Assembly (NCBI GenBank): GCA_965140445.1
Contig: OZ223236.1
Coordinates: forward strand, 2,562,010 to 2,626,009
Length of the DNA stretch: 64,000 nt
Direction: 5' to 3'
Source: Candidatus Ozemobacteraceae bacterium
GTDB lineage: Bacteria; Muiribacteriota; Ozemobacteria; Ozemobacterales; Ozemobacteraceae
The first letter of the stretch is position 1. Every line of letters begins with the position of its first letter. The notes under the pieces are model-generated. The model was not told where the DNA came from and ran no database searches. It saw only the letters and a program-made list of their open reading frames with translations. Below are positions 73 through 18,507 of the stretch, piece after piece. The position numbers and the translations under genes were made by a program.

Positions 73-87
73 TTACTAACAATACCT

Positions 88-108: not shown

Positions 109-153
109 TGTAAATCAGTAAATCAGTAAATCATTTATAGGAGATTTTCAACA

Positions 154-504: not shown

Positions 505-519
505 AGGCAGGTTCAAATA

Positions 520-852: not shown

Positions 853-854
853 AA

Positions 855-2029: not shown

Positions 2030-2056
2030 CTAACTAACTAAGGAGAATTTATAAAA

Positions 2057-3082: not shown

Positions 3083-3089
3083 GCAACAC

Positions 3090-3111
3090 AGGGGGCTGTT
3101 TGTCCCCTTTT
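3090..3111 (+). terminator. candidate intrinsic terminator after major tail gene
   Basis: 7-bp stem AGGGGGC/GTCCCCT (one G-U) with loop tgttt followed by TTTT. Confidence 0.4.
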
Positions 3112-3148
3112 AAACTTTTCTTAGAAATATCAGGAGGCAAAAAAAATC

Positions 3149-3529: not shown

Positions 3530-3666
3530 CTACAAATCCGGATCTTAGAGCAATTGTAGCTACTGCAATAAACGAGAGCATCAGTATTAACAGTGTTATT
3601 GAAAGAGGAGCTGATGATTTAGCGCTGAGAATAGCACTACGAAAACTAGAAAACGAAACATCTTAA
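3517..3666 (+). other. -1 programmed frameshift site (A_AAA_AAA at 3517-3523) and -1 frame extension to TAA 3664-3666 (gpGT-like long form)
   Basis: I translated the -1 frame from 3523 by hand: KLATNPDLRAIVATAINESISINSVIERGADDLALRIALRKLENETS, no stop until 3664-3666, ending 20 bp before the tape measure start. Confidence 0.55.
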
Positions 3667-3685
3667 AGAAAGGACTAGAGCGACA

Positions 3686-5254
3686 ATGGCAAGCAGCAAT
3701 ATAAATATAAAGCTCAAAGCTATAGATGAGTATAGCGGCGTCTTGACCGGGCTAAACCAGGGTTTAGAGCTCGTTGGCAAAGGATTTAATTTTATTAAAG
3801 CAACAGCCAGCGTTGCCTGGGACGCGATAAGCTACGGCACTAAAGCCGCTCTGGATCTAGCTAAAGTTGGTGGAGCTTTTCAAGAACAGCGTAATCAGTT
3901 TGAAAACCTGGCGAAGAGTTACAAAGTGAATGGTCAATCTATTATTGATACTGTTAAAGGTACTGCTCTAAACACTATTACAGAGTTTGATAGCATCAGC
4001 ATAGCTACAAAAGCTCTAGCAGCTGGTTTAAAAGGCAAAGATTTAGAGGACTCTCTAAGCTATGTGAAACGCTGGACAGAAGCTACAGGTCAAGATTTTC
4101 GCGCTGTTTCAGAAAGTGTTTTTACAAGCTTAGCAAGCGGACGTTTTAGCATTTTAAGGCAAATGGGTCTAGTAATTGAAAATGGAGCAAAACTAAATCA
4201 AGTTGTTGCTGCAATGAGCGCCGGTTTAAAAAAATTTGGTGATTCAGGCTTCAACGCAGGCGACAAACTCGCAAGTATGGCAGCTAGTCAAGACGATTTC
4301 TGGAGAAAAATTGGACAAGGAGTCAACTCGTCAAAAGAATTTCAGGACGTTTTAACTAGACTCTCTGACAATGCACTAGCTTTCGTGAAAAATTTTGATC
4401 CATTGCCCGTAACTTTGTTTGTAGACGAAGTTATAAGCGGAGCAAAAAACATTTATAACATTTTTAAAGAAACTTTTCCGGGTGTCTCAAAACTGCTCGA
4501 CACAATGTTTGTTAATCCGATTGAGGGCGTTAAAGATTTCGCTAAAGTCGGAGTTGACTCTTTCTATGCAATTTATAGAACAGCTGCTGATGTTACAAAC
4601 AGCATTTTAGAAACATTTAAAACACTAAACAGCGGAAATGTTCTGTCAGATTTAGCAAGCGGAACAATTCAACTATTAAGTTTCATCGGCTCTGCAATTT
4701 CACAACTAATAGAATCTGCTGTTGACTTGGCAGCTGATGCAATAGCACGAATTTTAAATAATCTCGGTGATTTCTTGAAACAGAGCCCAAAAATCAGCGA
4801 GTGGCTGGGCATTGACGCTAGTGTTTTTGATTTTTCAGGCTCAGCAAATCAGCTCAAAACATCAGTAGCAGCAATGACGGGCGCTTTTAAACTTGGTTTT
4901 GATGATTTGTCAAAACGATCTGATGCACTATTTAGCAATCTAAACGGCGGTTTTGATGACATGAAATCAGATTTGAGCGAAATAGACAAAGCGCATGTCA
5001 AAACGTTGTCTAGTCTCGACAGCATGAGCAAAAGCTATTCAAAAGCAAACAACGAAGCTGAAAAAATGGCAGAAACAATTAAAAATGTACCTAGCTATTC
5101 AAAAATAAAAGTTGAGCTAGCTGACGGCTCTGTTAAAGAGATTGAGGACGGATTGAAATATATTAAAGCGCCGCTTGTAAATCTTAAAGCTGAACTTGAT
5201 TTGAACGAACTCAAAGACATTGACAAAAAAAATCAGAAGCAAGATCACTACTGA
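3686..5254 (+). CDS. tail tape measure protein
   Basis: 522-aa ORF, Ala/Leu/Lys-rich helical composition, placed directly after the chaperone/frameshift pair; SD AAAGAAAGGA upstream. Confidence 0.6.
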   Translation: MASSNINIKLKAIDEYSGVLTGLNQGLELVGKGFNFIKATASVAWDAISYGTKAALDLAKVGGAFQEQRNQFENLAKSYKVNGQSIIDTVKGTALNTITEFDSISIATKALAAGLKGKDLEDSLSYVKRWTEATGQDFRAVSESVFTSLASGRFSILRQMGLVIENGAKLNQVVAAMSAGLKKFGDSGFNAGDKLASMAASQDDFWRKIGQGVNSSKEFQDVLTRLSDNALAFVKNFDPLPVTLFVDEVISGAKNIYNIFKETFPGVSKLLDTMFVNPIEGVKDFAKVGVDSFYAIYRTAADVTNSILETFKTLNSGNVLSDLASGTIQLLSFIGSAISQLIESAVDLAADAIARILNNLGDFLKQSPKISEWLGIDASVFDFSGSANQLKTSVAAMTGAFKLGFDDLSKRSDALFSNLNGGFDDMKSDLSEIDKAHVKTLSSLDSMSKSYSKANNEAEKMAETIKNVPSYSKIKVELADGSVKEIEDGLKYIKAPLVNLKAELDLNELKDIDKKNQKQDHY

Positions 5255-5411
5255 TGTCAAAGTCAATCTTGATTCAAACAAGCTTGACGCTAAAAAATCT
5301 GAAGAAGGCTTAACAGCTCAACAAGTTTTAGATGCACTAACTAAACTCGTAATGGACTATGCAGCCTCTATAGCTTCTAGTTCCGGCTTTCCAGCTGTTG
5401 TGAGCGCATAA
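5220..5411 (+). CDS. possible C-terminal continuation of tape measure protein in +1 frame (or separate small ORF)
   Basis: Frame opens at 5205 and overlaps the tape measure 3' end; an A8 homopolymer (5225-5232) lies in the overlap, and removing one A fuses the two frames. Confidence 0.3.
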   Translation: MTKKIRSKITTDVKVNLDSNKLDAKKSEEGLTAQQVLDALTKLVMDYAASIASSSGFPAVVSA

Positions 5412-5427
5412 AAAAGGATTTTTAATA

Positions 5428-5805
5428 ATGATTCAAATTAAACCGACGACCAGTTGCTTGTTAAATCATCAAGAGTTTAGTTTAACTCTTCCAGGTTCAT
5501 TGTCTTTCAATGTTCCCAGGGCTAGTAAATCAGTAAGAACGCTGGACGGCGGAGTTGCAATAACTCTTTGGAAGAAAAACAAAGCTGGAGCGATAACAGA
5601 AAAAAGTTTTTTGTTAAATCAAAGTCAATACAAAATCTTAGAGCAAATTATATATCACGAAACAGTTTTTGAGTGGTTGGTTTTCAGTGGTGAGAGCAGG
5701 TTTTTATGTTCATTAGATTTTACAAAAGATGAACAAATAACATTCGACAATAATCCTGATTTTAAAAATGTTTCAGTGCAATTTTTTGTTATACAGGAGC
5801 TTTAA
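5428..5805 (+). CDS. hypothetical phage tail protein
   Basis: 125-aa ORF with AAGGAT SD, first gene after tape measure. Confidence 0.5.
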   Translation: MIQIKPTTSCLLNHQEFSLTLPGSLSFNVPRASKSVRTLDGGVAITLWKKNKAGAITEKSFLLNQSQYKILEQIIYHETVFEWLVFSGESRFLCSLDFTKDEQITFDNNPDFKNVSVQFFVIQEL

Positions 5806-5807
5806 AA

Positions 5808-6935
5808 ATGATTCAAGGCGGAACAAGCGCGGCTGGTAGAGCAGCTAGAACCGGGTATACACAGTATTACATACCCTGTTTGCTTTTCGCGTCTTCTAAA
5901 TCTGTCTTAGAAAAAATGCAGAATACAAAGCGCGTATCTGTTTATAACGCGTATGTAAAGATTGAAGATTTTGACGGCGGTTTGCAGCTTTTGAACAGTT
6001 GCAGCTATTTTCAAATTCAGAAATATGCTGGAGCCGGAATTGACAACGCTACTCTAACAATTCAAAGAGCGGAAATATGGGGGATTTGGCAAGATACATA
6101 CAAAAACTTGTTAAAGCCGTCAAAGCGCTCTGTGACCATCTTTGCTGGAATTCCGGGAAAAGAAGAACAAGTTTTTTGTGGTCGAATAACCGGCTATCAA
6201 GAGAGCCAGGGCAGCGGCGGTGGGGCTATAAATCTGAATTTAAGTGATCATCGTTTGACTGTTCAGAGAACTACTACTACTCAAAAATACACTGAGCACA
6301 CTAGATTTTATGAAATTTCAAGAATTGCTGACGAAATTTTTAAAAATGCTGGTCAAGTTTTGCAAATAGCAGACACAGACACAGTATCAACGTGGACGCC
6401 AACTGGCAACGGGCTAGAGTCAGCAAATCAAGCGCTTTCAGGAGAACCGGAATGGACTGGAGGCGCTCTAGTAACTATAAATTCAGGCAATGTTTTAACA
6501 GTAACGAGTGATGATTTATTAATAATAAATGATTCTCTGATCAGTAATGCTTCAAGAAATTTTCACGATTCAAGCGCTTTTAACACTGTTAATGTGAAAG
6601 GTTTAGTCGATGATGTTCTGACTACTGATATTGTTCAAGATGAAACAGACGCAAAAGATCGCGGAATAATAACATATAGCGCAATCGTCGGATCTGAGCA
6701 CGATAATATAGAGCAAGCAAAATTACAAGCCCAGAGGCTCATAGCACGAGCATTGAGCGGCGTTTTCAGATGTAATACTGTTTATTTGCCGTATTTGGAA
6801 CCAGGGCAAATCGTAAAAATACAGAGTAATCGTTTTAACATTGCTCTATCGACTGCAAAAATAACTAGTGTTATGCAGCAATATCAAGTCGGAAATTGTA
6901 GCACGAGCATTAGCGGACTGGAGCTATTAGAATGA
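5808..6935 (+). CDS. hypothetical phage tail/baseplate protein
   Basis: 375-aa ORF, CAGGAGC SD, 2-bp gap from upstream gene. Confidence 0.55.
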   Translation: MIQGGTSAAGRAARTGYTQYYIPCLLFASSKSVLEKMQNTKRVSVYNAYVKIEDFDGGLQLLNSCSYFQIQKYAGAGIDNATLTIQRAEIWGIWQDTYKNLLKPSKRSVTIFAGIPGKEEQVFCGRITGYQESQGSGGGAINLNLSDHRLTVQRTTTTQKYTEHTRFYEISRIADEIFKNAGQVLQIADTDTVSTWTPTGNGLESANQALSGEPEWTGGALVTINSGNVLTVTSDDLLIINDSLISNASRNFHDSSAFNTVNVKGLVDDVLTTDIVQDETDAKDRGIITYSAIVGSEHDNIEQAKLQAQRLIARALSGVFRCNTVYLPYLEPGQIVKIQSNRFNIALSTAKITSVMQQYQVGNCSTSISGLELLE

Positions 6936-7900
6936 TACTGCACGCTATTATAACAGCTATAGACGTACCAGAAAAAGGCTGGTATCAAGCTCTAACGAAT
7001 TTCGGCACAACTGTCAATGCAGTTCGACTGAAAGGTACTGATAAAAAGTTTGCTAACGGGCAAATAGTTAGTGTTATTCAAAACGGCTCAGAGTTTGGTT
7101 TGACAGAGTTTGGCAAAACATCAGTGTTAAAAATTCCGGCTCTTTTGCGTAGCGGTTTAGCAGAACAATACAAAGCTGATACAGTTTTAGCATATATTGC
7201 AACGCTAGCAAACAATGTTAAAAAACTCTATCACGTCGCAAAAGTTGAAAATGTTGCTTTAGACGCTCTAACTGTTTTGAATGAATTTACAAAACAGGTG
7301 CAATTGTTGAGTTGCAGCGAAGTTAGTGCGCTAGATTTTAAAATTAATGACAGAGTTTTAATAGAAATCGGAAAACCGTCAAAAATAATAGGTTGGTGGA
7401 ACTGTGTCCCAGCAGCTGTTGACACAGGTTATGCAATAATAGCTATTGGTCGCAGAGCATACAGTCCTGATGTTTTTATACACAAAATCAGTTTTAAAGA
7501 CGGTGAATACAGCGTCAGCAATGAAATTCGATTTGAAATGAATAATAGAGCTCTGACGTATGCAAACATTTTTACTCTAAAGAGCTTAGACGCTGACGAG
7601 TATTTCTATTCAAGAGTAATAGCAACCGGAGCGCTAGACGTGCCAGCAGAGCTCCACTGGCTAAAATGGCGCAAGAATTTGACGAGCGTTGAAGAAATTA
7701 CAGAATCAGAATATCTAGCAAAAGAAGCTATACAGCCAGTCTACACTATGACAACTGATAACAAAATTTGGTGGACTTCAGACAATTGCTATATATCAGA
7801 CACAGAAACAAGCTCTAAAACTCTTGTTTTCCCGTCTGGCGAGCCTTTCCAGGAGCAGTTTTTTCCGATTCAAGGCAAAATTTACAAGGAGTTTATTTAG
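6932..7900 (+). CDS. hypothetical phage tail/baseplate protein
   Basis: 322-aa ORF, ATGA overlap with previous gene (translational coupling). Confidence 0.55.
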   Translation: MILHAIITAIDVPEKGWYQALTNFGTTVNAVRLKGTDKKFANGQIVSVIQNGSEFGLTEFGKTSVLKIPALLRSGLAEQYKADTVLAYIATLANNVKKLYHVAKVENVALDALTVLNEFTKQVQLLSCSEVSALDFKINDRVLIEIGKPSKIIGWWNCVPAAVDTGYAIIAIGRRAYSPDVFIHKISFKDGEYSVSNEIRFEMNNRALTYANIFTLKSLDADEYFYSRVIATGALDVPAELHWLKWRKNLTSVEEITESEYLAKEAIQPVYTMTTDNKIWWTSDNCYISDTETSSKTLVFPSGEPFQEQFFPIQGKIYKEFI

Positions 7901-8313
7901 TGAGCAGTTCTGTACCATTCAAAATTAGTATTAATCCTGATCCTGCTTTGATAATTTTTGCCGGGAAAAAGACAGACTCTGTTAATTTCGAAATTACTAA
8001 CGCAGATACTAGAAATATAACTAGTCTGCTCATTAGAGCTGTTAGAGCTGATTTGATGCCGCTGGGACTGATAAATAACGAAAATAGAGAAACAAAACTA
8101 GCAGCCGGGGAGTCAATTGTTTTTAATCAGCGACTCGAAGCAAGAGCAACAGATTTTGACGAGTGGACAAGCTGCAATGACTGGAGCAGCGGTTTAGACC
8201 TGGGCGAATTTTCTCCAGGTCAAAGCAAAACTTTTCAAATCAGATTAAATCTACTCGACGAGCAAGAGACAGAGCTAAAACAGGGCTTTTCGATCATGCT
8301 CGCAATAATCTAA
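7900..8313 (+). CDS. hypothetical phage protein (GTG start)
   Basis: 137-aa ORF, GTG start with AAGGAG 8 nt upstream. Confidence 0.5.
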   Translation: MSSSVPFKISINPDPALIIFAGKKTDSVNFEITNADTRNITSLLIRAVRADLMPLGLINNENRETKLAAGESIVFNQRLEARATDFDEWTSCNDWSSGLDLGEFSPGQSKTFQIRLNLLDEQETELKQGFSIMLAII

Positions 8314-8326
8314 GGAGGCGCTGAAA

Positions 8327-8674
8327 ATGGCAGATACAACAAATTTAGACGCGATTATAGACGCTGGAGTCAGCGCTATAGCAACAGTTGAGCTGTGGAC
8401 TGAAATCCGCGATTTACTGAAAGCAGTTTCAGGTGAAACAGGCTCTGTAACGCTAGCTGGCAGAAATACAGGCGTTGAAGTTAGTTTGACGACAACGTTT
8501 GATGCTACTACAGACTATGATGTTTTCTTTTATATCGAGAAAGCTGCTGCTGCAAAGACAGGCAGCATAGGTGAAGTGACTATTACAAAAAATTCAGGTA
8601 GTGCGTTTACTGTGAAAAATTCAGGATCTGACTCACTATCTACTCTGAATTACAAAGTTATGAAGAGAGCTTAA
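8327..8674 (+). CDS. hypothetical phage protein
   Basis: 115-aa ORF, AAGGAGG SD. Confidence 0.5.
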   Translation: MADTTNLDAIIDAGVSAIATVELWTEIRDLLKAVSGETGSVTLAGRNTGVEVSLTTTFDATTDYDVFFYIEKAAAAKTGSIGEVTITKNSGSAFTVKNSGSDSLSTLNYKVMKRA

Positions 8675-8676
8675 CT

Positions 8677-9471
8677 ATGAAAAAACTATTATTAATAATA
8701 CTTATAATGCTTTCTAGCAGATGTTTTGCAATAGACAACAACATTGTTTTTGTGAACCACTTTGACGGTTTAGTTAGTAATCAAGACTTTACTTGTGATT
8801 ACATGCCCTTTTATACGTTCTATGCAACTCAAAATGCAAACAATGCAGGTATACCGCGCCTTGACGGAGCTGGCAAATGGGGACAGAGCTATAATGCAGG
8901 TCAAAGCAGTAGATACTCGTATTGCTATAATTATACAGACTTTAACGTCAACACAGTGCTTGAAAATGACTTCACTATCGACTTTTGGCTATATCTTACA
9001 AGCGCTGACGCTGGAATTGACACAGGCTATGTTTTAAGAGCTGGCAGCTTTTCAACTTATGTATTGATGCAAGACTACACAGTAAAAATGAGCTTTACTG
9101 ACGGCTCAGGCAGTGGCTACGTAAACTATCAAGTTGATGATTTTATTCACTACGCGTTTGTGCGAAGCGGAAACACTTTAAAAGCGTATAGAAACGGAAT
9201 TTTGCAAGCTACTAGCGCAACAACTGCACCGGCTTTGAATATTTCAAACATCAGATTGGGGCGCGAGTTCATAAGCGGCGATGCTTTCACAAATGTAAAT
9301 TTTTTAATGGACGAACTGAGAGTTAGCAGAAAAGCAGAATGGTTAGAAAATTTCACGCCTCCAGCTGCTCCTTATTCTTACGCGCCGATTTATGCAAACA
9401 TCAGACTTGGAACAAGCGGAGAAATAAAACTAGGCTCAGATGGGCTGATAAAGCTGGATTGGAGGCAATAA
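8677..9471 (+). CDS. secreted LamG/concanavalin A-like lectin domain protein (tail fibre-associated)
   Basis: 264 aa; N-terminus MKKLLLIILIMLSSRCFA looks like a cleavable signal peptide; body resembles a LamG-type jelly-roll (FTIDFWLYL...YAFVRSGNTLKAYRNG...IRLGRE). Domain call by eye. Confidence 0.5.
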   Translation: MKKLLLIILIMLSSRCFAIDNNIVFVNHFDGLVSNQDFTCDYMPFYTFYATQNANNAGIPRLDGAGKWGQSYNAGQSSRYSYCYNYTDFNVNTVLENDFTIDFWLYLTSADAGIDTGYVLRAGSFSTYVLMQDYTVKMSFTDGSGSGYVNYQVDDFIHYAFVRSGNTLKAYRNGILQATSATTAPALNISNIRLGREFISGDAFTNVNFLMDELRVSRKAEWLENFTPPAAPYSYAPIYANIRLGTSGEIKLGSDGLIKLDWRQ

Positions 9472-9473
9472 AA

Positions 9474-10967
9474 ATGAATGAATCTCCTGAAAATATTTTT
9501 CTTACTGAAGACGATATAGAAAAAACTAGCACTAGTCTTGTTATTGCTGACAATAAAATTGTTGTAAACGGCATTGACGGCGGCTTCTATGATGATTTTT
9601 CGAGCGGAGACTTGAGCAGATATATTAGTTCTAACGCTGTGATAGAGGGCGGCAATGTTAGATTTACAGATAGCACAAGTAACATAGTTTATAACAACTA
9701 TATTGTTTCAGATATTATTCCGATCACTGGTACTCAATACTACGGAATTCAAGCGGGAGTTTACGAAGTCAAAGCAAGACGAATTGCTATTGATACTGTA
9801 AATAATAACTATTTATATTTTACAACTGATTTGATGACGCCGGTGCGCTATAACAACTCCAGCGGTTTTTATATGTATTACACAAAAGATGTTGTTTATA
9901 TATACGCTTTCGGCGGAAGCACTACAGCTAGTTTTCAGTATACTACTGCTCAAATTCCGATCGGCGCTGAAATAACATTTAGAATAGTTGACGAGTCTCC
10001 GCTCGGCAGCTCGTTACAGAATGCTACTAGAATGTATTTTAAAATTAACAACGAAGAATGGATAAACACAGGAATCGGCGGAATAAATAGAGGCTACGTC
10101 GGTTTCGGCTTGTTATATGCTTACTCTAGCGTCAACAGTTTTGAATTTTTGAACTTCGCAATTTATGGCTATCCTGAAAAAATCACTCTAACGCTCAATA
10201 AAACTAGCTCTCTAGTAGCTGATTTACCAGCTAAGCTTAAAACACTTGATTCTATTTCTTTAACAACAGAAGACAGCAAACAAGGTTCTATAGCTCTATC
10301 GTTGCAGAAAAAAGACGCAAGACTAGCAGAATGGTCGGATCTAGACGACAAAATAGCTGAGTTTTCGACTGTTGCTGACGTGAAAAATGGCGGCTCTTTT
10401 ATTGCTCCAGTTCAAGAGCCAGCTCCGGAGCGTGAATTTATCATCAAGCTTGAATATTCAAACGGCGGAGTCAGCGGCTATAACACTATTAATTTGCCGC
10501 TGCAAATAAGCTGGACAAGCGATATTGAAGCGCCGCTCAGTCCGTCAGCTAGCGAAGTTAACCAATTTGGAGAAGCTGGCGCAGTTTTAAAAGCTGCTGA
10601 TGCTTTGTTAGAAGATGTTTACGGCGCACAAATAGAAGTAGATATTAACAATAACGGCTATTTGCCGCTTTCTGAGCGCAGCATACTAGAAACTGACAAC
10701 AACCATTTAATTTTGCGTTCAACGACTGGCGAGAAACAGCGAGCAGGTGAGCACAACAGCTTAGTCTATGCGCTCACAGGGCTAAATATTGACGACACTA
10801 TACGAATTAGATCGCGTTTTGTTGACGAAGTTGGCAACGCGTCAGCATTCAAAAATTCAGGATTAATAACTATAAAAGGCACTCTCTACGCTCAAGTGCC
10901 AGTAAAAAATTTCAAAACAAGCTGGAAAACAGCAACAAAATGGGGGGCGAAATGGACAACAAGCTAA
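9474..10967 (+). CDS. tail fibre-like protein
   Basis: ORF-track ORF starts at 9339 but the in-frame ATG at 9474 has GGAGG 9 nt upstream and follows the previous stop; 497 aa, Asn/Thr/Ser/Gly-rich beta-type composition. Confidence 0.5.
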   Translation: MNESPENIFLTEDDIEKTSTSLVIADNKIVVNGIDGGFYDDFSSGDLSRYISSNAVIEGGNVRFTDSTSNIVYNNYIVSDIIPITGTQYYGIQAGVYEVKARRIAIDTVNNNYLYFTTDLMTPVRYNNSSGFYMYYTKDVVYIYAFGGSTTASFQYTTAQIPIGAEITFRIVDESPLGSSLQNATRMYFKINNEEWINTGIGGINRGYVGFGLLYAYSSVNSFEFLNFAIYGYPEKITLTLNKTSSLVADLPAKLKTLDSISLTTEDSKQGSIALSLQKKDARLAEWSDLDDKIAEFSTVADVKNGGSFIAPVQEPAPEREFIIKLEYSNGGVSGYNTINLPLQISWTSDIEAPLSPSASEVNQFGEAGAVLKAADALLEDVYGAQIEVDINNNGYLPLSERSILETDNNHLILRSTTGEKQRAGEHNSLVYALTGLNIDDTIRIRSRFVDEVGNASAFKNSGLITIKGTLYAQVPVKNFKTSWKTATKWGAKWTTS

Positions 10968-11269
10968 TAGTCGGTGAGTCACACGATCCAATTTTAGAAC
11001 TAACTGACGAAAATAACGAAATAATGGATCTAGAAGGCGCAAGCGTAAAGTATGGCATGAAAAAAAACAAAAATAGTGCGTATGCTCACGCGTCTATGCC
11101 AATTTCTGGTACTGCGAGCCTGGGTCAAGCTTCAGTAGAAGTTTCAGCAGCAGTAACAGCTGAAATAGAGCTCGGGCGCTATATAGAAGAATTTGAAATA
11201 ACATTAGCAAACGGAAAAACAAAGAAATTTCAGCGCTCAATATCTGTCGAATGGGCTGTCAATACATAA
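10940..11269 (+). CDS. hypothetical phage protein
   Basis: 109-aa ORF overlapping the 3' end of the upstream gene; alternative ATG at 10952. Confidence 0.45.
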   Translation: MGGEMDNKLIVGESHDPILELTDENNEIMDLEGASVKYGMKKNKNSAYAHASMPISGTASLGQASVEVSAAVTAEIELGRYIEEFEITLANGKTKKFQRSISVEWAVNT

Positions 11270-11281
11270 AAGGAGACAAAC

Positions 11282-13048
11282 ATGAAAAAATTTTTATTAT
11301 TAATAATGATACTGATAACTAGTATAGCTAGTGCTCAGAGCTATGATTCAGCAGAAGATATAGGGCTAAGTCCTTATGATGTTGCTGAATATATGCTCAG
11401 AAACGGCAATATAGCAAGTGGTACTACAGCTCCAACAGTTACAGCTGGTATACCTGACGGTGCGCTATATTGGCAGACACAGCCTAGCATTGTGTTGTGG
11501 GTTAAGCTCGATGGAAGCTGGGAGCCTGGAGCCGGGGCAGTTGATCCGATCGCTATTCATTTAGCTGAGCTCGGAGAGAAGAGCTACAACAGTCTCGACG
11601 ATAAACCGCTTATTCCTGAAAATTTGGCTGATTTGACAGAAAAGAGCTATAACACACTAACAGACAAGCCAACATCTGCCAGCTGGAATTTAGCAGAGCT
11701 TAACGAAAAAAGTTTTGCAAGTTTAGCAAGTAAACCAACGACTTTAAACGGCTACGGCATTATAGACGGAGTGCTAGACTCAGTTTTCAGCTCTCATGTT
11801 TCAGAGTTTAACTCTCACGTTAATACAGTTGTTGACGCGCATTCAGCCAATCAGAGAATATCACAAACTCTGACGATCGGCGCAGATAACGACTCGAATG
11901 CGTTTTTGGGCTACGCAGGAGCTGGCACAGTAGCAGTCGGTGATTATTTAATGGTACCTTATACTGCTACAGCTCCGACGACTATAAATAGCGGCTCAGC
12001 GCTGTTTTGGTGCGACTCAAACACGAATCAAGTAAAAATATACAACGGAAAAACAGGAGAGTGGCTGATTATCGGCAGCATTTATAGTGTTGACGCAGAT
12101 TTTGGTATTAAAAATGAGTCATATCTAAATTTATATTCAAACGATAATGTAGGAGAAAACATCAGAGCTAGACTAAGATGTATTGGAAGCGCGACGGGCA
12201 GCGGATATGGCGGAGATTTTGTATTAGAAACTAGAAATGGATCGAATGTTTGGAATTCTAACGCGTTTACTCTGAAAGAAAATGGAAACATTTTAATAAA
12301 TACAGCAACAGACGACAGCTACTACAAACTACAGCTCGCAGGAAATGCAAAATTTTATTCAACTTCGGGCGGTTCAATTGGTGAAGATGATCCGGCTGTT
12401 GCTAATCTTTTTACTAATACACCGAATGGCGGCGGTGGCTTATTCAATGTTTTGCAATTGCATCTTGATAGAGCAGCAAACAACGACGGAGCAGCTTTAA
12501 CGTTTGCAGCTAACGATGCAGGAGGCAGCAGGCGCACTCTAGCGCTAATTGGTGCAGCTCCCAGTGACACAACAGACGGATCGCCAGACGGTTACATGGT
12601 TTTTTACACTTGCGCAGGCACTATGCTAGAGAGAATGAGGCTGACTAAAAGCGGTAATCTTTTAATAAATACAGCAACAGACGATGGAATTAACAAACTA
12701 CAAGTTAATGGAAGCGTTAAATTTGACGCTGGTTCATCAGTTTGTCGATTCAAAGAAATAACTTTAGCTGACAATCAAACACTTGATTTAAGAAGTTTTT
12801 TCGGAAATGCAAACTATATGTTCGGAAATTTAAAAATAGTTGCTATTGAAAATTCAGGCAGTGCGGCTGATGTTTTTTTGACTGGATCATATAATACTGT
12901 AAATTTGTATTCAGTTGCTGGCTCAGTCGTGAACACTTCAACAGACGGCTATATTTGCGTATATCCAGCCGGAAGCGGTGAATACACTCTCGAAAACAAG
13001 CTCGGTACTTCGACTGTAATCTCACTATTTTATCAGGGGATACAATAA
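11282..13048 (+). CDS. tail fibre-like repeat protein with N-terminal signal peptide
   Basis: 588 aa; AAAGGAGA SD; N-terminus MKKFLLLIMILITSIASA-QS; three tandem ~20-aa repeats (LAELGEKSYNSLDDKP-like, aa 94-152) and a duplicated ~30-aa module (NILINTATDD..KLQ..G..KF). Confidence 0.55.
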   Translation: MKKFLLLIMILITSIASAQSYDSAEDIGLSPYDVAEYMLRNGNIASGTTAPTVTAGIPDGALYWQTQPSIVLWVKLDGSWEPGAGAVDPIAIHLAELGEKSYNSLDDKPLIPENLADLTEKSYNTLTDKPTSASWNLAELNEKSFASLASKPTTLNGYGIIDGVLDSVFSSHVSEFNSHVNTVVDAHSANQRISQTLTIGADNDSNAFLGYAGAGTVAVGDYLMVPYTATAPTTINSGSALFWCDSNTNQVKIYNGKTGEWLIIGSIYSVDADFGIKNESYLNLYSNDNVGENIRARLRCIGSATGSGYGGDFVLETRNGSNVWNSNAFTLKENGNILINTATDDSYYKLQLAGNAKFYSTSGGSIGEDDPAVANLFTNTPNGGGGLFNVLQLHLDRAANNDGAALTFAANDAGGSRRTLALIGAAPSDTTDGSPDGYMVFYTCAGTMLERMRLTKSGNLLINTATDDGINKLQVNGSVKFDAGSSVCRFKEITLADNQTLDLRSFFGNANYMFGNLKIVAIENSGSAADVFLTGSYNTVNLYSVAGSVVNTSTDGYICVYPAGSGEYTLENKLGTSTVISLFYQGIQ

Positions 13049-13049
13049 C

Positions 13050-13526
13050 ATGAAGAAATCATTAATATTTTTACTAATAACAATTTCTATTTTGCTTGTG
13101 ACTGTTTCTGTATCAGCTCAAAACGCTAGCTATTCAGCTAGCTATGATATTGAGACTGTTGTTAATAATAAAGTTGAGCAAATCAAAATAAACTTTCTTG
13201 ATGCAGTATTGAGCACTATTTCTGTCTTTCTGTTGTTTGTAGTAGCTCAGATTAAAGCATATTTTGCTCAAGCAACGAAAGAAAAACAGCACAAGCGCGG
13301 CTCAAGCGTCGTCGAAGATAGTTTGTTTTCTGCAATTTTTGAAGCTGATAGCACGCTTGAAAAAGTTTTAGCAAGTAAAGCTGAGCGCGTTCGTGTATCT
13401 GTAATTTGGGCTTCTATAGCTAAGACAAGACTAAAAGAATTAGCAGGATTTAAAAAAGCGGACTTAAATAATTGGATTTCAACACAACAAACAATCATTT
13501 TGAGCAAAAAAGCTCAAGGAGTCTAA
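13050..13526 (+). CDS. membrane protein with signal peptide (lysis-associated or moron; function unknown)
   Basis: 158 aa; N-terminus MKKSLIFLLITISILLVTVSVSA-QN plus one further hydrophobic helix (VLSTISVFLLFVVAQIKAYFA). Confidence 0.45.
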   Translation: MKKSLIFLLITISILLVTVSVSAQNASYSASYDIETVVNNKVEQIKINFLDAVLSTISVFLLFVVAQIKAYFAQATKEKQHKRGSSVVEDSLFSAIFEADSTLEKVLASKAERVRVSVIWASIAKTRLKELAGFKKADLNNWISTQQTIILSKKAQGV

Positions 13527-13630
13527 AAAATGAGATACCATATTTCGCCCGATTTATTATTTGTATATTTAGTTCTTGTGATTTTGTGCTTTCATGTTGC
13601 TGTTCCAGTGTTTTTCAGGAGCGTGAAATT

Positions 13631-14191
13631 ATGGCTAAGCTAGTGAGAATGAACGAAAACGACAAAAATTGTGGTTTAGTTGCTATGCAAATAGCGAGCA
13701 AGCTCGACTATGAAAAAATAAAAAATTCCTGGGCGGGCGGCTGGCTATCAGATAGCACAGACAAAGGAGCGGTTGGAGTACCTAACGACACTCCGCTAGA
13801 TCACTTTTCAACGCTCGAAAAACTCAAGTTAAAATTTAGAATTGTAACATGCAATGAAATCTTGAACGGCTCTTGTAGAGCTAGAAAAACAGTAATTTTG
13901 TTGCACTTGTCGAGCAGTTCAAAAAAAACAATTTGGGAAAAAATAAAAAACTGGTTTAGAGCAACTCTAGCGCAGCATTGGTGCGTATTAGAGTCAGTAG
14001 ATATTAAAAATCAAGTTTTGACTGTAGATTGGCTCTACTCAGATCAGAAAACAAAAACATTTTCTTTTTCAGAGTTTGAACAGCTATACAGTGCTGGCAC
14101 GCCAGCATGTGCGTATGAAATCGGCAGCGGCAATTACAAGGTTAAATGGTATCAGAGATTACTAGCAAAAATTTCTGGAAAATGGATCTAG
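13631..14191 (+). CDS. putative papain-fold cysteine peptidase (C39/CHAP-like), possible second lytic enzyme
   Basis: ATG at 13631 with AGGAG 9 nt upstream (track ORF begins at 13472); candidate catalytic Cys in NENDKNCG, His in AQHWCVL, Asp in ESVD. Motif-level inference only. Confidence 0.4.
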   Translation: MAKLVRMNENDKNCGLVAMQIASKLDYEKIKNSWAGGWLSDSTDKGAVGVPNDTPLDHFSTLEKLKLKFRIVTCNEILNGSCRARKTVILLHLSSSSKKTIWEKIKNWFRATLAQHWCVLESVDIKNQVLTVDWLYSDQKTKTFSFSEFEQLYSAGTPACAYEIGSGNYKVKWYQRLLAKISGKWI

Positions 14192-14200
14192 GAGATTATT

Positions 14201-14500
14201 ATGAGCGACTTAGCAGATCTCAACGAAAAACGAATAGATAGACTAGAAAACAGTGTTATTGAAATGAAAAAAGAGCTGAAAGTAGCTATTAAAGAAGGGT
14301 TCAAAGAATGCAGAGAAATTGCTCCGCTGACTTGTCCAAACTCGAAAAAATTAAGCTTGTCTAGTGCAATTATGCTCTGTAGCGTGCTGTGCGGGGTGTT
14401 TTTATTTCTCGCAAAAATTGGAGTTTTAGAAAACATTTCAATAAAAAAACAAACTAAAACTAGTATTAGCAGTGACAGACAAGAAGGAGCTAATAAATGA
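14201..14500 (+). CDS. putative holin (single transmembrane helix)
   Basis: 99 aa, AGGAG SD, charged coiled N-terminus then TM helix LSLSSAIMLCSVLCGVFLFLAKIGVL; overlaps the amidase start by 4 bp. Confidence 0.4.
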   Translation: MSDLADLNEKRIDRLENSVIEMKKELKVAIKEGFKECREIAPLTCPNSKKLSLSSAIMLCSVLCGVFLFLAKIGVLENISIKKQTKTSISSDRQEGANK

Positions 14501-15021
14501 AAATAGCACTAGTCGTCGGACACTCTAAAAAAGCAAAAGGGGCTCGAAACAGAGCGTCAAAAATGACTGAATTTGACTATAATGACGAGCTCGTTAAAAA
14601 AATAGCTGTTATGCTCAATAAAAGGGGCATAGACAACGTAATTGTCTATCGAGATAGCTATAGTGCTCTACCGGGAAAAATTAACGCTAAGAAGCCCACT
14701 TTTATTTTGAGCTTTCACGCGAACAGTTGCAAAAATGATGCTGTGTCTGGCTCAGAAGTTCTTTACTACAAAGATAGTAAAAAAGGAAAATTGCTTGCTC
14801 AAGTTATGCTCAATGCAATTGTAAAGACTCTTGAACTTAGAAATAGAGGCATAAAGCCGCGCTCAGAGAGCGATCGTGGCGGATATTTGCTAAAAAATAC
14901 TCATGCAGCTTGTGTCATACTAGAGCCTTTTTTTATTAATAATAATGCTGATTGCGAGACAGCTACGAATAAACTCGACGAGCTCGCTGTATCTATAGCT
15001 CTAGCTATTGAAAATATATGA
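14497..15021 (+). CDS. N-acetylmuramoyl-L-alanine amidase (Amidase_3 family) endolysin
   Basis: 174 aa with family hallmarks ALVVGHS...SFHANS...EVLYY...ILEPFF; AGGAG SD; located at the end of the phage late operon. Confidence 0.85.
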   Translation: MKIALVVGHSKKAKGARNRASKMTEFDYNDELVKKIAVMLNKRGIDNVIVYRDSYSALPGKINAKKPTFILSFHANSCKNDAVSGSEVLYYKDSKKGKLLAQVMLNAIVKTLELRNRGIKPRSESDRGGYLLKNTHAACVILEPFFINNNADCETATNKLDELAVSIALAIENI

Positions 15022-15096
15022 AAAAATTGTAGTAGATGCAAAACTAGCTAAACATTGCATGCTATCAAAATAAAGTTTTTTTGCCTCCTCCCTTTA

Positions 15097-15121
15097 CTCC
15101 CAGAGCTCTGGGAGTTTTTTT
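15097..15121 (+). terminator. intrinsic terminator after endolysin
   Basis: Perfect 18-bp palindrome CTCCCAGAGCTCTGGGAG followed by TTTTTTT. Confidence 0.6.
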
Positions 15122-15204
15122 ATTATTAATAATGATTAATTTCAAATTTCTTGAACAGCATAAACTATTTATATGACGATAAAAAATTTTTGGAGGTTTT
15201 TAAA

Positions 15205-15363
15205 ATGTTTGATACTACTAAATTGAGTGCTGAAGAGCTTATGAACTATAATCTAGCAAAAGAAATATCAAAAAGTCTATTAAAAGAGCTTGAAACAGAC
15301 GTAGAAACTGGCAGAATACAAGACTTGAGACTAGTTAGACTAGTAGACGAGCTGAAAAAATAA
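15205..15363 (+). CDS. small hypothetical protein (52 aa)
   Basis: ATG at 15205 with GGAGG 8 nt upstream; the track's 15151 start is a TTG extension. Charged helical peptide, followed by a strong terminator. Confidence 0.4.
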   Translation: MFDTTKLSAEELMNYNLAKEISKSLLKELETDVETGRIQDLRLVRLVDELKK

Positions 15364-15382
15364 AAAAGCCAGGAGAACAAGA

Positions 15383-15411
15383 AGCCCCCATTTTTGGGGG
15401 CTCTTTTTTTT
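15383..15411 (+). terminator. intrinsic terminator (end of prophage late region)
   Basis: Stem AGCCCCC / GGGGGCT with loop attttt followed by a T-run of about nine. Confidence 0.65.
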
Positions 15412-15660
15412 AACAATTTAATTTTCAAATTTTCGAGAGAAATGTTTTATTACACAGAACATTTTTTCAAACAATTCTATAGAGCAAGCTGGCGCATTGA
15501 AGTTGTTTAAGCAATGCAAATTTTTTCTCGCTATAAAATTCTTTGAGTATCTGTATTTATTATACTGTTGTTCATGAATGTTTTAGCATATTTAATAATA
15601 TTATAAAAATATGGCTGTATTGCTCTATTTAAAAGAGTTTCCCAGGTCGGTAAAAGTTGA

Positions 15661-15837
15661 CAAATTGTGGTACACAATCACCCGACAGGACAGATTTCAC
15701 CTTCAACACCTGATAAGAATATCACCCGCGCGCTTGCTTCAGCAGCCGAAATTTTGGATATAAGATTTCTCGACCATATAATTGTTGGTCGGGAAGGGAA
15801 GGGCTATTTTAGTTTCAGAGAGAATGGTTTACTCTGA
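15661..15837 (+). pseudogene. radC: radC (JAB/MPN-domain protein) 3'-terminal remnant, N-terminus missing
   Basis: Hand translation QIVVHNHPTGQISPSTPDKNITRALASAAEILDIRFLDHIIVGREGKGYFSFRENGLL-stop matches the RadC C-terminal HNHPSG...LDHI.IG motif block; in-frame TGA at 15658-15660 and no upstream homology. Confidence 0.7.
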
Positions 15838-16473
15838 TTCGTCTTCTTCTTTTTTGATTATGCCGTTTGGCTTATCTCTTCCTGAGAGGAGATCTCTGAT
15901 TTTGCCATATAAGACTTCAAGAGCGACTCTGTTTGAAGCACCTTGCGGAACGATTAGGTCAGCAAGATATCTTGAGGGTTGAACCATATTTATGGCTGCA
16001 TCTCTAACTGAATTTTCATATTGATCCACTATGCTTTTAACAGTTCTGCCTCTATCAATATGGTCTCGTTTAATTCTTCTAATGATTGCCCGATCCAATG
16101 GCACATCAATATAGATTCTTAAATCAAATAGCGGCATAAGCTCAGGAATATTAAAAATTAATAACCCTTCGATAATCAATATTGGATGCGGTTGAATATT
16201 AATTGTTTTTTCTAATCTATCGGAACATTTAAAATCGTAAATTGGTCTCTCAATAGCTCTATCATTGGTTAGATCATTAATGTGCTTAATGAGAAGATCG
16301 GTTTCCAGAGCATCAGGATGATCGTAATTTATAATGCGAGGTTTATCCTTTTTCGCATAGTAATACATGTCGTGTTCAAGAACACAGATTTTCCCGGGAA
16401 ATCTCTCGAGAACTGCTCTAGAAACACTACTCTTACCAGACCCGCTTAATCCACAAATCCCTATTATATACAT
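15829..16473 (-). CDS. udk: uridine kinase
   Basis: 214 aa; P-loop GICGLSGSGKSS and uridine/cytidine kinase-like body; ATG start. Confidence 0.9.
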   Translation of the reverse strand: MYIIGICGLSGSGKSSVSRAVLERFPGKICVLEHDMYYYAKKDKPRIINYDHPDALETDLLIKHINDLTNDRAIERPIYDFKCSDRLEKTINIQPHPILIIEGLLIFNIPELMPLFDLRIYIDVPLDRAIIRRIKRDHIDRGRTVKSIVDQYENSVRDAAINMVQPSRYLADLIVPQGASNRVALEVLYGKIRDLLSGRDKPNGIIKKEEDESE

Positions 16474-16519
16474 GGCGACAATTTACCACAGTTGCTGAAT
16501 TTAGAATACAAAAATTTGC

Positions 16520-16544: not shown

Positions 16545-16561
16545 TCTTTTTAGTTTTTAAG

Positions 16562-18424
16562 TTAAATCAGCTTTTTAAGAGTTTCAGCAATTTTATCGTG
16601 AGATAAATTGAAGGAAGCAAGAAGCTCTTCTGGTGTACCAGATCTTGGCACTTCAGTTACCGCTGTATGATGGAATTCTTTAATTTTTCCAGCAAGGTTT
16701 AATGCTACTGCACTACCAGCTCCGCCTTCAGGTGCATGTTCTTCAAAAACAGCTACTCGTCCATTTGATTTTTCTACAAGTGCGGCTAATTCTTTTGTTG
16801 GGAAAGGTTTGATACAATACAAATCAACAACTTGAATTTTTTCTGCGCCTGGAAGAGTTTCGAGGGCTTTAAGAATTTCGTGTACAATAACACCGCAAGA
16901 AACTACTGTTAATTCAGGGTTATCTGATTTTTTTATAACCTTAAGTCCGCCAATTGGGAACTGCTCATCACTATTATAAAGAACAGCTGTTGAAGGTCTT
17001 GAAAGTCTTACATAACCAGGACCATCATGGCGGGCAAGGCTTATGATTGACTGGTATGCAGAAACAGCATCCGATGGGTACAAAACCGCTCCCTTTGGAA
17101 GTGTTCGGAAAGCTGCTATATCTTCAAGTGCCATTTGAGAAGGGCCATCTTCTCCGATTGAGATTCCTGCGTGAGTTCCAATGAGTTTAATCTTAAGACC
17201 GGAGAGAGCCGCCATTCTTACCTGATCAAATGCTCTGGCAAGGAAAGCACCAAATGTTACTGCAAATGGGATCAAACCTCTTGAGGCTAAACCTGCAGCT
17301 ACACCTGCCATATTCTGTTCAGCAATAAAGCATTCCACAAATCTTTCTGGATATGTTTCGCCAAATTTTTGAGAATAGGTTGAGTTTTGAGTATCGCCGT
17401 CAATAACCCATACTTTAGGCTCTACTTTTCCAAGCTCAAGAAGGGCAGTGTTAACTGCTTGTCTTGTCGCTGCCTTGTCGGTTTTGCTATATGGGGCTGG
17501 AGCAGTTTCAGCAGTAAATGGAGCATCAGAGATTTCAGTTTTTACTTCTTCTGGTTTAGCGATAACAGGCGCTGGAGGAGTTTTCATTAAATCAGCATTA
17601 ACTTCTTCCAAAACTTCTTTTAATCCATCAGCTTCTTTAATTGGTTTTCCGTGCCAGTTATCTTTGTCAGAGATAGCAGATACTCCGCCACCTTTAAAGG
17701 TTTTAGCAATAATACAAACTGGTTTTCCTTTTACATTTAATGCGGTATCAAATGCTTTGAGTAATTCTTCAAAATCGTGTCCGTTTTCAACAACGATTGC
17801 TTCCCAGCCAAAAGCTTCAACTTTTCTAGCATAGGTTCTAAGATCGTGCCCATGCATAGTTTCCCGGCTTTGTCCAAGACGATTGACGTCAATAATAGCC
17901 ATCAGATTATCAGTTTTCTTGTGAGCTGCCAGAGCGAAGGCTTCCCATACAGAGCCTTCTGCAACTTCGCCATCGCCAAGGATAACGTAAGTTCTTGCAC
18001 CATTTCTAACTACTTCTTGTTGTTGAAGGGCGATTCCGAGGCCACATGATAAACCTTGTCCAAGAGAACCAGTTGCAACATCAACAAATGGAAGACTAGG
18101 CATTGGATGGCCTTCTATTCTTGATCCCATTTGTCTAAGAGTGAGAACTTCTTCTTCTTTCAAATAGCCAGCTTCACACCAGGCAGCGTAAAGAGCTGGA
18201 GCTGCATGTCCTTTAGAAAGAACGAGGCGATCATTGGCATGAGAACCAGGATCAGCCGGGTTGTATTTCATTACTCTAAAAAAGAGTGAAGATAATATAT
18301 CTGCACATGAACAACATGAAGAAGGATGACCAGAGCCCGCTTTGGCTGTGGATTCAATTGAAAGCGCTCTAATTCTAGCTGCTCTGTGTTTAAGTTCTTT
18401 TATCAGGGATGTATCGTAGGACAT
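16562..18424 (-). CDS. tkt: transketolase
   Basis: TPP-binding motifs (GSGHPSS, GDGEVAEGSVWEA); start moved to the ATG (MSYDTS) with GGAGGG 5 nt upstream, the track's 18493 start is an extension. Confidence 0.9.
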   Translation of the reverse strand: MSYDTSLIKELKHRAARIRALSIESTAKAGSGHPSSCCSCADILSSLFFRVMKYNPADPGSHANDRLVLSKGHAAPALYAAWCEAGYLKEEEVLTLRQMGSRIEGHPMPSLPFVDVATGSLGQGLSCGLGIALQQQEVVRNGARTYVILGDGEVAEGSVWEAFALAAHKKTDNLMAIIDVNRLGQSRETMHGHDLRTYARKVEAFGWEAIVVENGHDFEELLKAFDTALNVKGKPVCIIAKTFKGGGVSAISDKDNWHGKPIKEADGLKEVLEEVNADLMKTPPAPVIAKPEEVKTEISDAPFTAETAPAPYSKTDKAATRQAVNTALLELGKVEPKVWVIDGDTQNSTYSQKFGETYPERFVECFIAEQNMAGVAAGLASRGLIPFAVTFGAFLARAFDQVRMAALSGLKIKLIGTHAGISIGEDGPSQMALEDIAAFRTLPKGAVLYPSDAVSAYQSIISLARHDGPGYVRLSRPSTAVLYNSDEQFPIGGLKVIKKSDNPELTVVSCGVIVHEILKALETLPGAEKIQVVDLYCIKPFPTKELAALVEKSNGRVAVFEEHAPEGGAGSAVALNLAGKIKEFHHTAVTEVPRSGTPEELLASFNLSHDKIAETLKKLI

Positions 18425-18507
18425 CTTACCCTCCATTTTAAATTTGTTTAAAACATATATAGGATTAAACAAAAGGAGGGGACTAGTCAACAAAATTGGG
18501 AAAAAGT

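What the first reader, a model, noticed from the sequence alone, without database searches (positions are those of the whole stretch)
15364..15837. Prophage right boundary: radC 3' remnant abutting udk suggests integration into radC
The phage late operon ends with two strong terminators (15097-15121, 15383-15411). After ~250 bp of AT-rich non-coding DNA, a 59-codon frame begins abruptly at the RadC catalytic motif (HNHPTG) and runs to a stop overlapping the udk stop by 9 bp. There is no RadC N-terminus upstream. This is the footprint expected when a temperate phage integrates into the 3' end of radC and displaces the original 3' end to attR. The attachment core would then lie near 15650-15700.
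Basis: partly seen in the sequence, partly recalled or inferred. Interest (0 to 1): 0.6.

Follow-up and report, generated by a model that had tools for sequence, protein, structure and literature searches.

The report
Prophage end splitting the radC gene
A phage has inserted into the middle of the radC gene of a Riflebacteria-like bacterium, cutting it just before its catalytic motif; this is an ordinary, well-understood kind of prophage boundary, here in a little-studied phylum.

Summary
Window 15661-15837 (+) is a 58-codon frame matching only the last 54 positions of the Pfam RadC JAB domain (E 4.6e-20). It overlaps the udk stop by 9 bp. Upstream lie 250 bp of 27% GC non-coding DNA, two terminators and about 15 kb of phage head, tail and lysis genes.

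Sixteen related Riflebacteria loci carry an intact radC of about 226-245 aa, convergent with udk-tkt in the same right-hand gene order, and no phage genes. The site is therefore empty in relatives.

The decisive result is protein P0145. It sits on the same 5,206,294-bp contig as the window's endolysin. It is a 177-aa RadC N-terminal piece ending ...HSTGIIVV|NKNTL*. The window piece reads *QIVV|HNHPTG.... The two halves sum to 226 aa, the length of the closest intact RadCs, and share only I-V-V (ATTGTGGTA, 15664-15672).

So radC was split cleanly by an insertion with a duplicated core of about 9 bp. This is best explained by site-specific integration of a temperate phage, making this junction attR.

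The attL DNA and the integrase could not be retrieved.

This is a new member of a known kind, of low to moderate interest.

The parts
1..15021 (+). Phage late (structural and lysis) gene block on one strand, running off the left edge of the window. In order: head decoration protein 154-504, a tape-measure-sized ORF 3686-5254 (assigned by size and position only; no PHROG hit), tail and baseplate proteins 5808-13048, a possible holin 14201-14500 (inferred from a hydrophobic stretch).
   Evidence: PHROG hits: phrog_122 head decoration, phrog_1887 tail, baseplate-wedge-like phrog_13163/1469. No relatives in IMG/VR. None of these genes occurs in 16 related host loci.
14497..15021 (+). Endolysin (N-acetylmuramoyl-L-alanine amidase), the last large phage gene.
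   Evidence: Pfam Amidase_3 E 4.1e-29. phrog_435 endolysin E 1.8e-40. Identical protein P0004 is recorded on a 5,206,294-bp contig.
15096..15123 (+). Intrinsic terminator after the endolysin.
   Evidence: 8-pair stem ACTCCCAGAGCTCTGGGAGT followed by a T-run.
15205..15363 (+). Small phage-side ORF (52 aa from the ATG, with a GGAGG ribosome-binding site at 15192-15196) lying between the two terminators. Function unknown; possibly a moron.
   Evidence: ORF list and sequence. No Pfam or PHROG hit.
15383..15411 (+). Second intrinsic terminator. The same hairpin is also called on the minus strand (15403-15382), but only the plus strand has a clear T-run.
   Evidence: Stem AGCCCCCATTTTTGGGGGCT followed by T8.
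15412..15663 (.). AT-rich non-coding phage end, inferred to be the phage-derived arm of attR.
   Evidence: 26.9% GC. No RadC similarity in any frame. No Rfam match above threshold. No convincing repeats. The arm role is an inference.
15664..15672 (+). ATTGTGGTA (codons I-V-V): the only RadC residues present in both halves of the split gene. It is the inferred common core, or crossover region, of attL and attR.
   Evidence: P0145 ends ...GIIVV|NKNTL* and the window frame reads *QIVV|HNHP... I170, V171 and V172 are the only columns shared by all rows of alignment A4. The DNA of attL was not seen, so the 9-10 bp length is inferred from protein.
15664..15837 (+). radC 3' remnant: 57 codons (IVVHNHPTG...FRENGLL) plus the stop. 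It carries the HxHPxG metal-binding motif but lacks the first 169 residues.
   Evidence: Pfam PF04002 positions 68-121/121, E 4.6e-20. 96% protein identity to L001. 25 synonymous against 2 non-synonymous differences from L001, pN/pS 0.025.
15829..16473 (-). Host uridine kinase (udk), convergent with radC. First gene of the conserved host flank.
   Evidence: Pfam PRK E 2.5e-32. 80-84% protein identity and the same position in most of the related loci; 67-69% in L005 and L091.
16562..18493 (-). Host transketolase. It continues the conserved gene order that defines the host side of the junction.
   Evidence: tblastn shows the same gene order with L004 and L006-L009 (through window ~25500 where the contigs reach that far); L084-L086 and L091 extend at least to window ~22100.

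Best explanation
This is the right junction (attR) of a temperate phage integrated inside the host radC gene of a Riflebacteria-like bacterium. Integration occurred by conservative site-specific recombination at a short core, about 9-10 bp (ATTGTGGTA, the I-V-V codons just before the catalytic HNHPTG motif).

The insertion split radC into two parts. The 5' part has 172 host codons plus 5 phage-derived codons and lies at the other prophage end, outside the window. The 3' part has 54 codons beyond the core and sits here, next to udk. The phage does not bring a replacement 3' end, so RadC is inactivated while the prophage is in place. Precise excision would rebuild a 226-codon gene.

The split is evolutionarily recent.

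What is shown:
- the fragment, the phage genes and the empty site in relatives;
- the complementary truncated RadC protein in the same genome;
- the exact match of the two break points.

What is inferred:
- that the 5' half flanks this same prophage;
- that an integrase did it;
- the DNA length of the core.
For: 1. The fragment is a true RadC C-terminus that begins right after a stop codon, with unrelated 27% GC DNA upstream.
2. About 15 kb of phage head, tail and lysis genes end 640 bp upstream. Lysis genes last, then terminators, then a non-coding arm is the usual layout next to attR in integrase-type temperate phages (the layout comparison is from general knowledge).
3. Sixteen related loci (L004, L006-L009, L084-L094) carry intact radC followed by udk, and by tkt wherever the contig extends that far, and none of the phage genes.
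4. P0145 (177 aa) is on the same 5,206,294-bp contig as the window's endolysin P0004. It matches L001's RadC exactly over the 21 residues they share, up to ...STGIIVV, then reads NKNTL*.
5. 172 + 54 = 226 aa, the length of the nearest intact RadCs (P0124, P0129, P0132, P0138). The halves overlap only in IVV. So nothing was lost and about 9 bp were duplicated.
6. pN/pS of the remnant against L001 is 0.025, like udk at 0.041. Almost all of its divergence therefore accrued while the gene was functional.
7. radC is a documented landing site for site-specific elements in Firmicutes: the Tn554 family at att554 (PMC7371108, PMC11769447) and a prophage within radC of E. faecalis (bioRxiv 10.64898/2026.03.26.714560).
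Against: - The DNA of the other junction was never seen.
- As a result, adjacency of P0145's gene to the prophage left end, the presence of an integrase and the true core length are all unverified.
- No arm-type repeats stand out in 15412-15663.
- No related phage with a visible attP was found.
Confidence: 0.8

Rival explanations
1. The phage integrates at the 3' end of radC and carries its own copy of the last ~170 bp. An intact radC would then persist at attL, and the piece in the window would be only the displaced, redundant original 3' end.
For: This is a common strategy for phages that target tRNA genes and some protein genes (general knowledge). The remnant sits exactly where a displaced 3' end would be.
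Against: In the listed top 120 of the profile search, the only RadC-type protein on the 5,206,294-bp contig is 177 aa and stops five foreign residues after IVV. No full-length RadC from that contig appeared. Homology between the halves is limited to three codons.
Confidence: 0.04
2. The truncation is a relic of a deletion, an inversion or a second mobile element, unrelated to integration of this phage. On this reading the phage merely happens to lie next to the break, and the radC 5' half lies elsewhere on the chromosome.
For: Adjacency of the 5' half to the prophage was not shown. The prophage is only partly inside the window.
Against: A deletion would remove sequence, yet the two halves add up to exactly 226 aa, with a 3-codon duplication. 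An inversion does not duplicate the break point. The phage side ends cleanly after its last gene, terminators and a non-coding arm. pN/pS shows a recent event. No RadC N-terminal coding sequence exists in the 48 kb to the right, where host gene order matches relatives for at least the first ~10 kb.
Confidence: 0.08
3. Insertion by a DDE transposase. The element would be a Mu-like transposable phage or a transposon carrying phage genes, and the IVV overlap would be a ~9-bp target-site duplication rather than a recombination core.
For: A short duplication at both junctions is also what transposition produces. The length can only be inferred from protein.
Against: Mu-like phages make 5-bp duplications, have TG...CA ends and place lysis genes before the head genes (general knowledge). 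Here the order is head, tail, lysis, end. The left end must begin with an Asn codon (AAY, from P0145's ...VV|N), not TG.
Confidence: 0.05

Closest known systems
Prophages that integrate inside and split a host protein gene (Listeria A118-like phage in comK, Bacillus SPbeta in spsM, S. aureus phi13 in hlb, L54a in geh)
   Same: A temperate phage sits inside a coding sequence. The two gene halves flank the prophage, the common core is only a few bp, and precise excision would restore the reading frame. Here 172 + 54 codons give a 226-codon radC.
   Different: The target gene (radC) and the host phylum (Riflebacteria-like) differ. The integrase type is unknown, and excision or any regulatory use is untested. 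The comparison examples are recalled from general knowledge and were not examined here.
Tn554-family site-specific transposons at att554 inside radC (Tn554, Tn558, Tn6260, Tn6674) in staphylococci and enterococci
   Same: The same host gene is hit in its 3' third and a 3' radC remnant is left behind. Tn6260 splits E. faecalis radC into 579 + 144 bp (bioRxiv 10.64898/2026.03.26.714560). radC is described as a frequent integration site (PMC11769447, PMC7371108).
   Different: The element here is a tailed phage of at least 15.6 kb, not a 5-13 kb transposon with tnpA, tnpB and tnpC. The break is about 171-174 bp from the radC end rather than 144 bp, so it is probably a different site a few codons away (inferred from fragment lengths, not from an alignment). 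The core here is about 9 bp, against the 6-bp Tn554 core.
Lactococcal P335-type prophages (e.g. bIL285) integrated beside radC, and an EFC-1-like prophage within E. faecalis radC
   Same: Temperate phages use the radC locus as their attachment region (PMC6127208, PMC3757294; bioRxiv 10.64898/2026.03.26.714560).
   Different: The lactococcal site is intergenic, between rex/ykhD and radC, and leaves radC intact. The phages have no detectable relationship to this one: there are no IMG/VR relatives, and the closest endolysin-bearing phage contig has no shared gene order.
Integration with 3'-end restoration (phages and islands in tRNA/tmRNA genes; phage 21 and e14 in icd)
   Same: A displaced gene 3' fragment lies at attR.
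   Different: In that mode the gene stays intact at attL, because the element carries a replacement 3' end. Here the 5' product is truncated (P0145, 177 aa).

Membership tests
RadC / UPF0758 JAB-domain protein (Pfam PF04002) | Significant match to the RadC JAB profile, including the HxHPxG motif | tested here: met
   E 4.6e-20, 72 bits against a 22.1-bit cut-off; HNHPTG is present.
RadC / UPF0758 JAB-domain protein (Pfam PF04002) | Complete protein: N-terminal HhH region plus the full JAB domain, about 220-245 aa | tested here: not met
   Only profile positions 68-121 of 121 are present. A stop codon lies directly upstream, and no N-terminal part exists in the window.
Prophage attR junction in a split host gene (site-specific integration) | Phage genes directly abut a host gene fragment | tested here: met
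   Endolysin, tail and head genes lie up to 15021, then 640 bp of small ORF, terminators and AT-rich DNA, then the radC remnant.
Prophage attR junction in a split host gene (site-specific integration) | Empty, uninterrupted site in related genomes | tested here: met
   Sixteen loci have intact radC followed by udk (and by tkt wherever the contig extends that far) and no phage genes.
Prophage attR junction in a split host gene (site-specific integration) | The complementary gene half is present in the same genome and ends at the same point | tested here: met
   P0145, on the same 5,206,294-bp contig as the endolysin, ends at ...GIIVV plus 5 foreign residues. The halves sum to 226 aa.
Prophage attR junction in a split host gene (site-specific integration) | Identical short core as a direct repeat at attL and attR | tested here: inconclusive
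   Three shared codons (IVV; ATTGTGGTA at 15664-15672) are inferred from protein. The attL DNA could not be obtained.
Prophage attR junction in a split host gene (site-specific integration) | Integrase (and excisionase) at the opposite end, next to attL | not testable with these tools
   The left end lies outside the window. Genome positions are not on record.
   The only RadC product from that contig among the listed top 120 hits is the 177-aa truncated P0145.
Tn554-family insertion at att554 | tnpA/tnpB/tnpC transposon, 6-bp core, break about 144 bp from the radC end | tested here: not met
   The inserted DNA is a phage late operon. The break is 171-174 bp from the end and the overlap is about 9 bp. 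The Tn554 values come from bioRxiv 10.64898/2026.03.26.714560.
Mu-like transposable phage | TG...CA ends, 5-bp target duplication, lysis genes ahead of the head genes | tested here: not met
   The gene order is head, tail, lysis, end. The left end starts with AAY (Asn), as read from P0145. The overlap is 9 bp. The Mu features are from general knowledge.

The most novel reading that the evidence does not exclude
Two related readings remain open.

First, the prophage could act as a reversible switch on radC ('active lysogeny'). Because the split is exact and in frame, excision would rebuild a working 226-aa RadC. Phage carriage and RadC activity would then be mutually exclusive states in this Riflebacteria lineage.

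Second, the DNA encoding RadC's conserved catalytic segment (IVVHNHPxG) could be a landing pad used independently across phyla: by the Tn554 family and enterococcal phages in Firmicutes, and by this phage here.
Probability: 0.12. Interest if true: 0.5.

Novelty: new member of a known kind. Interest (0 to 1): 0.27.

Why it matters
The finding fixes one prophage boundary to within a few bases. It shows that this genome's radC is a phage-disrupted gene, not an annotation error or an old pseudogene. It also gives a rare, well-delimited example of a temperate tailed phage in the candidate phylum Riflebacteria; the two phage proteins tested (a tail protein and the endolysin) have no relatives in IMG/VR. 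Finally, it adds a case outside Firmicutes to the list of mobile elements that target radC. Beyond that it is a textbook integration footprint.

Tried and rejected
- Exact-protein look-ups of udk, a phage protein, the endolysin, P0004 and P0145, meant to fetch the source contig and walk to attL, all returned 'not on record'.
The source genome may have been missed.
- The metagenome scan with the RadC N-terminal profile found only intact radC loci.
- IMG/VR scans with a tail protein, with the endolysin and with the exact junction 24-mer found nothing.
- The closest endolysin-bearing phage contig (L164, 56% identity) has a different gene order and no visible integrase or att site.
- tblastn of the rebuilt RadC against phage and plasmid collections gave only distant full-length or JAB-only RadC genes. 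There was no att-like partial copy.
- No convincing arm-type repeats were found in the AT-rich arm, and there was no Rfam family.
- Identity to L001 is lower in 15680-15709 (19 of 30). I considered this a mark of phage-derived DNA left of the crossover and rejected it. That stretch is also variable among relatives, and the dip is not significant after allowing for about 35 bins.
- An in-register AAAAGAG match 35 nt upstream of the junction was judged to be chance, because the intervening 30 nt match at a random level.
- A regex screen of all fetched loci for other RadC genes cut at the same point was too noisy to use.

Full report
**What is in the sequence**

The window from 1 to 15021 carries one long plus-strand block of phage late genes:
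- a head-decoration protein (154-504, phrog_122);
- a tape-measure-sized ORF (3686-5254), assigned by size and position only, with no PHROG hit;
- tail and baseplate-like proteins (phrog_1887, phrog_13163/1469);
- an Amidase_3 endolysin at 14497-15021 (Pfam E 4.1e-29, phrog_435 E 1.8e-40).

Two terminator hairpins with T-runs follow, at 15096-15115 and 15383-15402. The scan found 7 terminator-like sites in 14900-16600, against 0.9 expected from shuffles. Between the two terminators lies a 52-aa ORF with a GGAGG ribosome-binding site (15205-15363) and no family match.

From 15412 to 15660 the DNA is 26.9% GC and matches nothing in Pfam or Rfam. After a TGA at 15658-15660, the frame 15661-15837 reads QIVVHNHPTGQISPSTPDKNITRALASAAEILDIRFLDHIIVGREGKGYFSFRENGLL*. 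It matches Pfam RadC (PF04002) positions 68-121 of 121 with E 4.6e-20. udk (PF00485, E 2.5e-32) runs on the minus strand at 15829-16473 and overlaps the remnant by 9 bp.

No other RadC-like sequence exists in the 64-kb window, and there is no tRNA gene.

**What the site looks like in relatives**

A protein search with the remnant found three metagenomic contigs (L001-L003) with 96%, 77% and 75% identical RadC ends, each followed by the same convergent udk. In each, the radC frame stays open upstream to the contig end.

A scan of species-representative genomes placed the locus in Candidatus Riflebacteria MAGs (L004-L009, 69-76% identity).
- L004, L006, L007 and L009 have a full radC of about 230-245 aa followed by udk, transketolase and the same further genes as window 15829-25500. 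L008, a short contig that begins inside radC, shows the same radC 3' end, udk and tkt.
- Nothing to the left of radC in those loci matches the window.

A metagenome scan with a profile of the RadC N-terminal 171 residues gave eleven more Riflebacteria-type loci (L084-L094). All have intact radC, and all but L094 show udk, with tkt beyond it where the contig extends that far. None contains any of the window's phage genes.

So the ancestral state is an intact radC convergent with udk, and the window differs by having phage DNA in place of the first three quarters of radC.

**The other half of the gene**

Exact-sequence look-ups of window proteins returned no positions. However, the endolysin search returned a 100% identical entry, P0004, recorded on a single contig of 5,206,294 bp.

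I then searched the protein collection with a 13-sequence profile restricted to the part of RadC upstream of the break (A3). Among about 120 listed RadC proteins of 217-282 aa, one entry was 177 aa long and recorded on a contig of exactly 5,206,294 bp. This is P0145.

Its sequence ends ...EDQTAVYPKKVMKRALDLHSTGIIVVNKNTL. Up to GIIVV it matches the upstream part of L001's RadC exactly over the 21 residues they share. After that it has five unrelated residues and a stop.

In alignment A4 the only columns shared by P0145, the window remnant and five intact RadCs are I170, V171 and V172. The host-derived parts add up to 172 + 54 = 226 residues, the length of the closest intact homologues (P0124, P0129, P0132, P0138). 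The gene was therefore cut between V172 and H173 with no loss of sequence. Three codons (ATTGTGGTA, window 15664-15672) are present at both break points.

From the flanking codons the shared stretch can be at most 10 bp. In the window the codon to the left is CAA, where P0145 has an Ile codon. The codon to the right is CAC, where P0145 has an Asn codon.

**How it most likely came about**

The evidence fits insertion of one element by conservative site-specific recombination. This makes 15664-15672 the core of attR and 15412-15663 the phage-derived arm. Four observations point this way:
- a clean split with a short duplication;
- phage lysis genes, terminators and a non-coding AT-rich stretch on the inner side;
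- an unoccupied site in all relatives;
- a complementary half-gene in the same chromosome.

The order head, tail, lysis, att is the common layout of integrase-type temperate phages. In that layout the integrase lies across attP from the lysis genes, that is, at the far left end of the prophage (general knowledge; not seen here).

The split is recent. Against L001, the remnant has 25 synonymous and 2 non-synonymous differences (pN/pS 0.025). This is indistinguishable from the intact neighbour udk (0.041). The remnant has therefore spent almost all of its divergence time as part of a functional gene.

The 3' piece has no ribosome-binding site and lacks most of the JAB fold, so RadC is presumably inactive in this lysogen (inference). 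Precise excision would rebuild the 226-codon frame (inference).

That model predicts an intact radC at attL whose last 50-180 bp duplicate 15661-15837. P0145 contradicts this: the 5' product is truncated, and the overlap between the halves is three codons. The break lies in the middle of the JAB domain, directly before the catalytic HNHPTG.

The prediction that the core lies near 15650-15700 was correct.

**Rivals**

- Deletion or inversion relic. This is unlikely because no sequence is missing and the break point is duplicated. It cannot be excluded formally, because the DNA next to P0145's gene was not seen.
- Transposase-mediated insertion. This would also duplicate a few bases. However, the gene order is unlike Mu-type phages, a 9-bp overlap is not their 5 bp, and the left end must start with an Asn codon rather than TG (the Mu features are from general knowledge).

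**Comparison with what is known**

Splitting of a host gene by a prophage is well known; comK, spsM, hlb and geh are examples from general knowledge. radC specifically is a documented target:
- the Tn554 family inserts at att554 inside radC in staphylococci and enterococci and leaves 3' remnants (PMC7371108; PMC11769447; bioRxiv 10.1101/2020.09.30.320143);
- Tn6260 splits E. faecalis radC into 579 + 144 bp, and an EFC-1-like prophage lies within the 579-bp part (bioRxiv 10.64898/2026.03.26.714560);
- lactococcal P335-type prophages most often integrate beside radC (PMC3757294, PMC6127208).

The present case differs in host phylum, in the element (a tailed phage with no IMG/VR relatives for the two proteins tested) and in the exact position (about 171-174 bp from the gene end rather than 144 bp). 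It is a new member of a known kind.

**Limits**

The attL DNA, the integrase and the size of the prophage are unknown. The core length is inferred from protein.

**Verdict**

The feature is real and its boundary is now placed at 15664-15672. Interest is low to moderate.

Noticed in passing
window 15664-15678: The junction sits on a perfect 6-3-6 palindrome, ATTGTG-GTA-CACAAT, which spans the IVV|HN codons. Relatives use other codons and lack it (L001 has ATAGTTGTACACAAC). It could be a recombinase half-site pair or a post-hoc coincidence.
   Followed up: partly
window 15137-15149 and 15419-15432: The same motif, TAATTT(T)CAAATTT, follows each of the two terminators about 15-20 nt downstream (repeat D7). 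It could be a promoter or operator element of the phage end. Not tested.
   Followed up: no
window 15205-15363: A 52-aa ORF with a strong GGAGG ribosome-binding site sits alone between two terminators, next to the att arm. This is the typical position of a lysogenic-conversion 'moron' gene. No Pfam or PHROG match.
   Followed up: partly
L001 1-60, L002 1-55, L003 1-60, L008 1-25: Four independent contigs from related organisms all end inside radC, 55-80 nt upstream of the break point used here. Part of this is selection bias: the protein search favoured short fragments. L008 came from an unbiased scan. This could reflect assembly breaks at the most conserved radC segment, or strain-level variation at this site.
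   Followed up: partly
window 1-15021 (phage block): The two phage proteins tested, a tail protein (5808-6932) and the endolysin, have no relatives in IMG/VR. The nearest endolysin elsewhere is 56% identical, on a phage contig with no shared gene order. This looks like an undescribed phage lineage of Riflebacteria.
   Followed up: partly
window 8677-9471 and 9339-10967: Two tail-region ORFs overlap by about 130 bp in different frames. The second more likely starts at an internal ATG, or the pair is joined by a programmed frameshift. Not examined.
   Followed up: no
source genome (outside window): Proteins of this genome (P0004, P0145) are in the protein collection, recorded on a 5,206,294-bp contig from NCBI and ENA. 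The gene-position index has no record for any of them, so the flanks could not be fetched.
   Followed up: yes
L005 8236-9081 and downstream: In one Riflebacteria MAG (nDJH6bin19), radC is intact but is not followed directly by udk. About 5 kb of other genes lie between them. The radC-udk adjacency is therefore not universal in the phylum.
   Followed up: no
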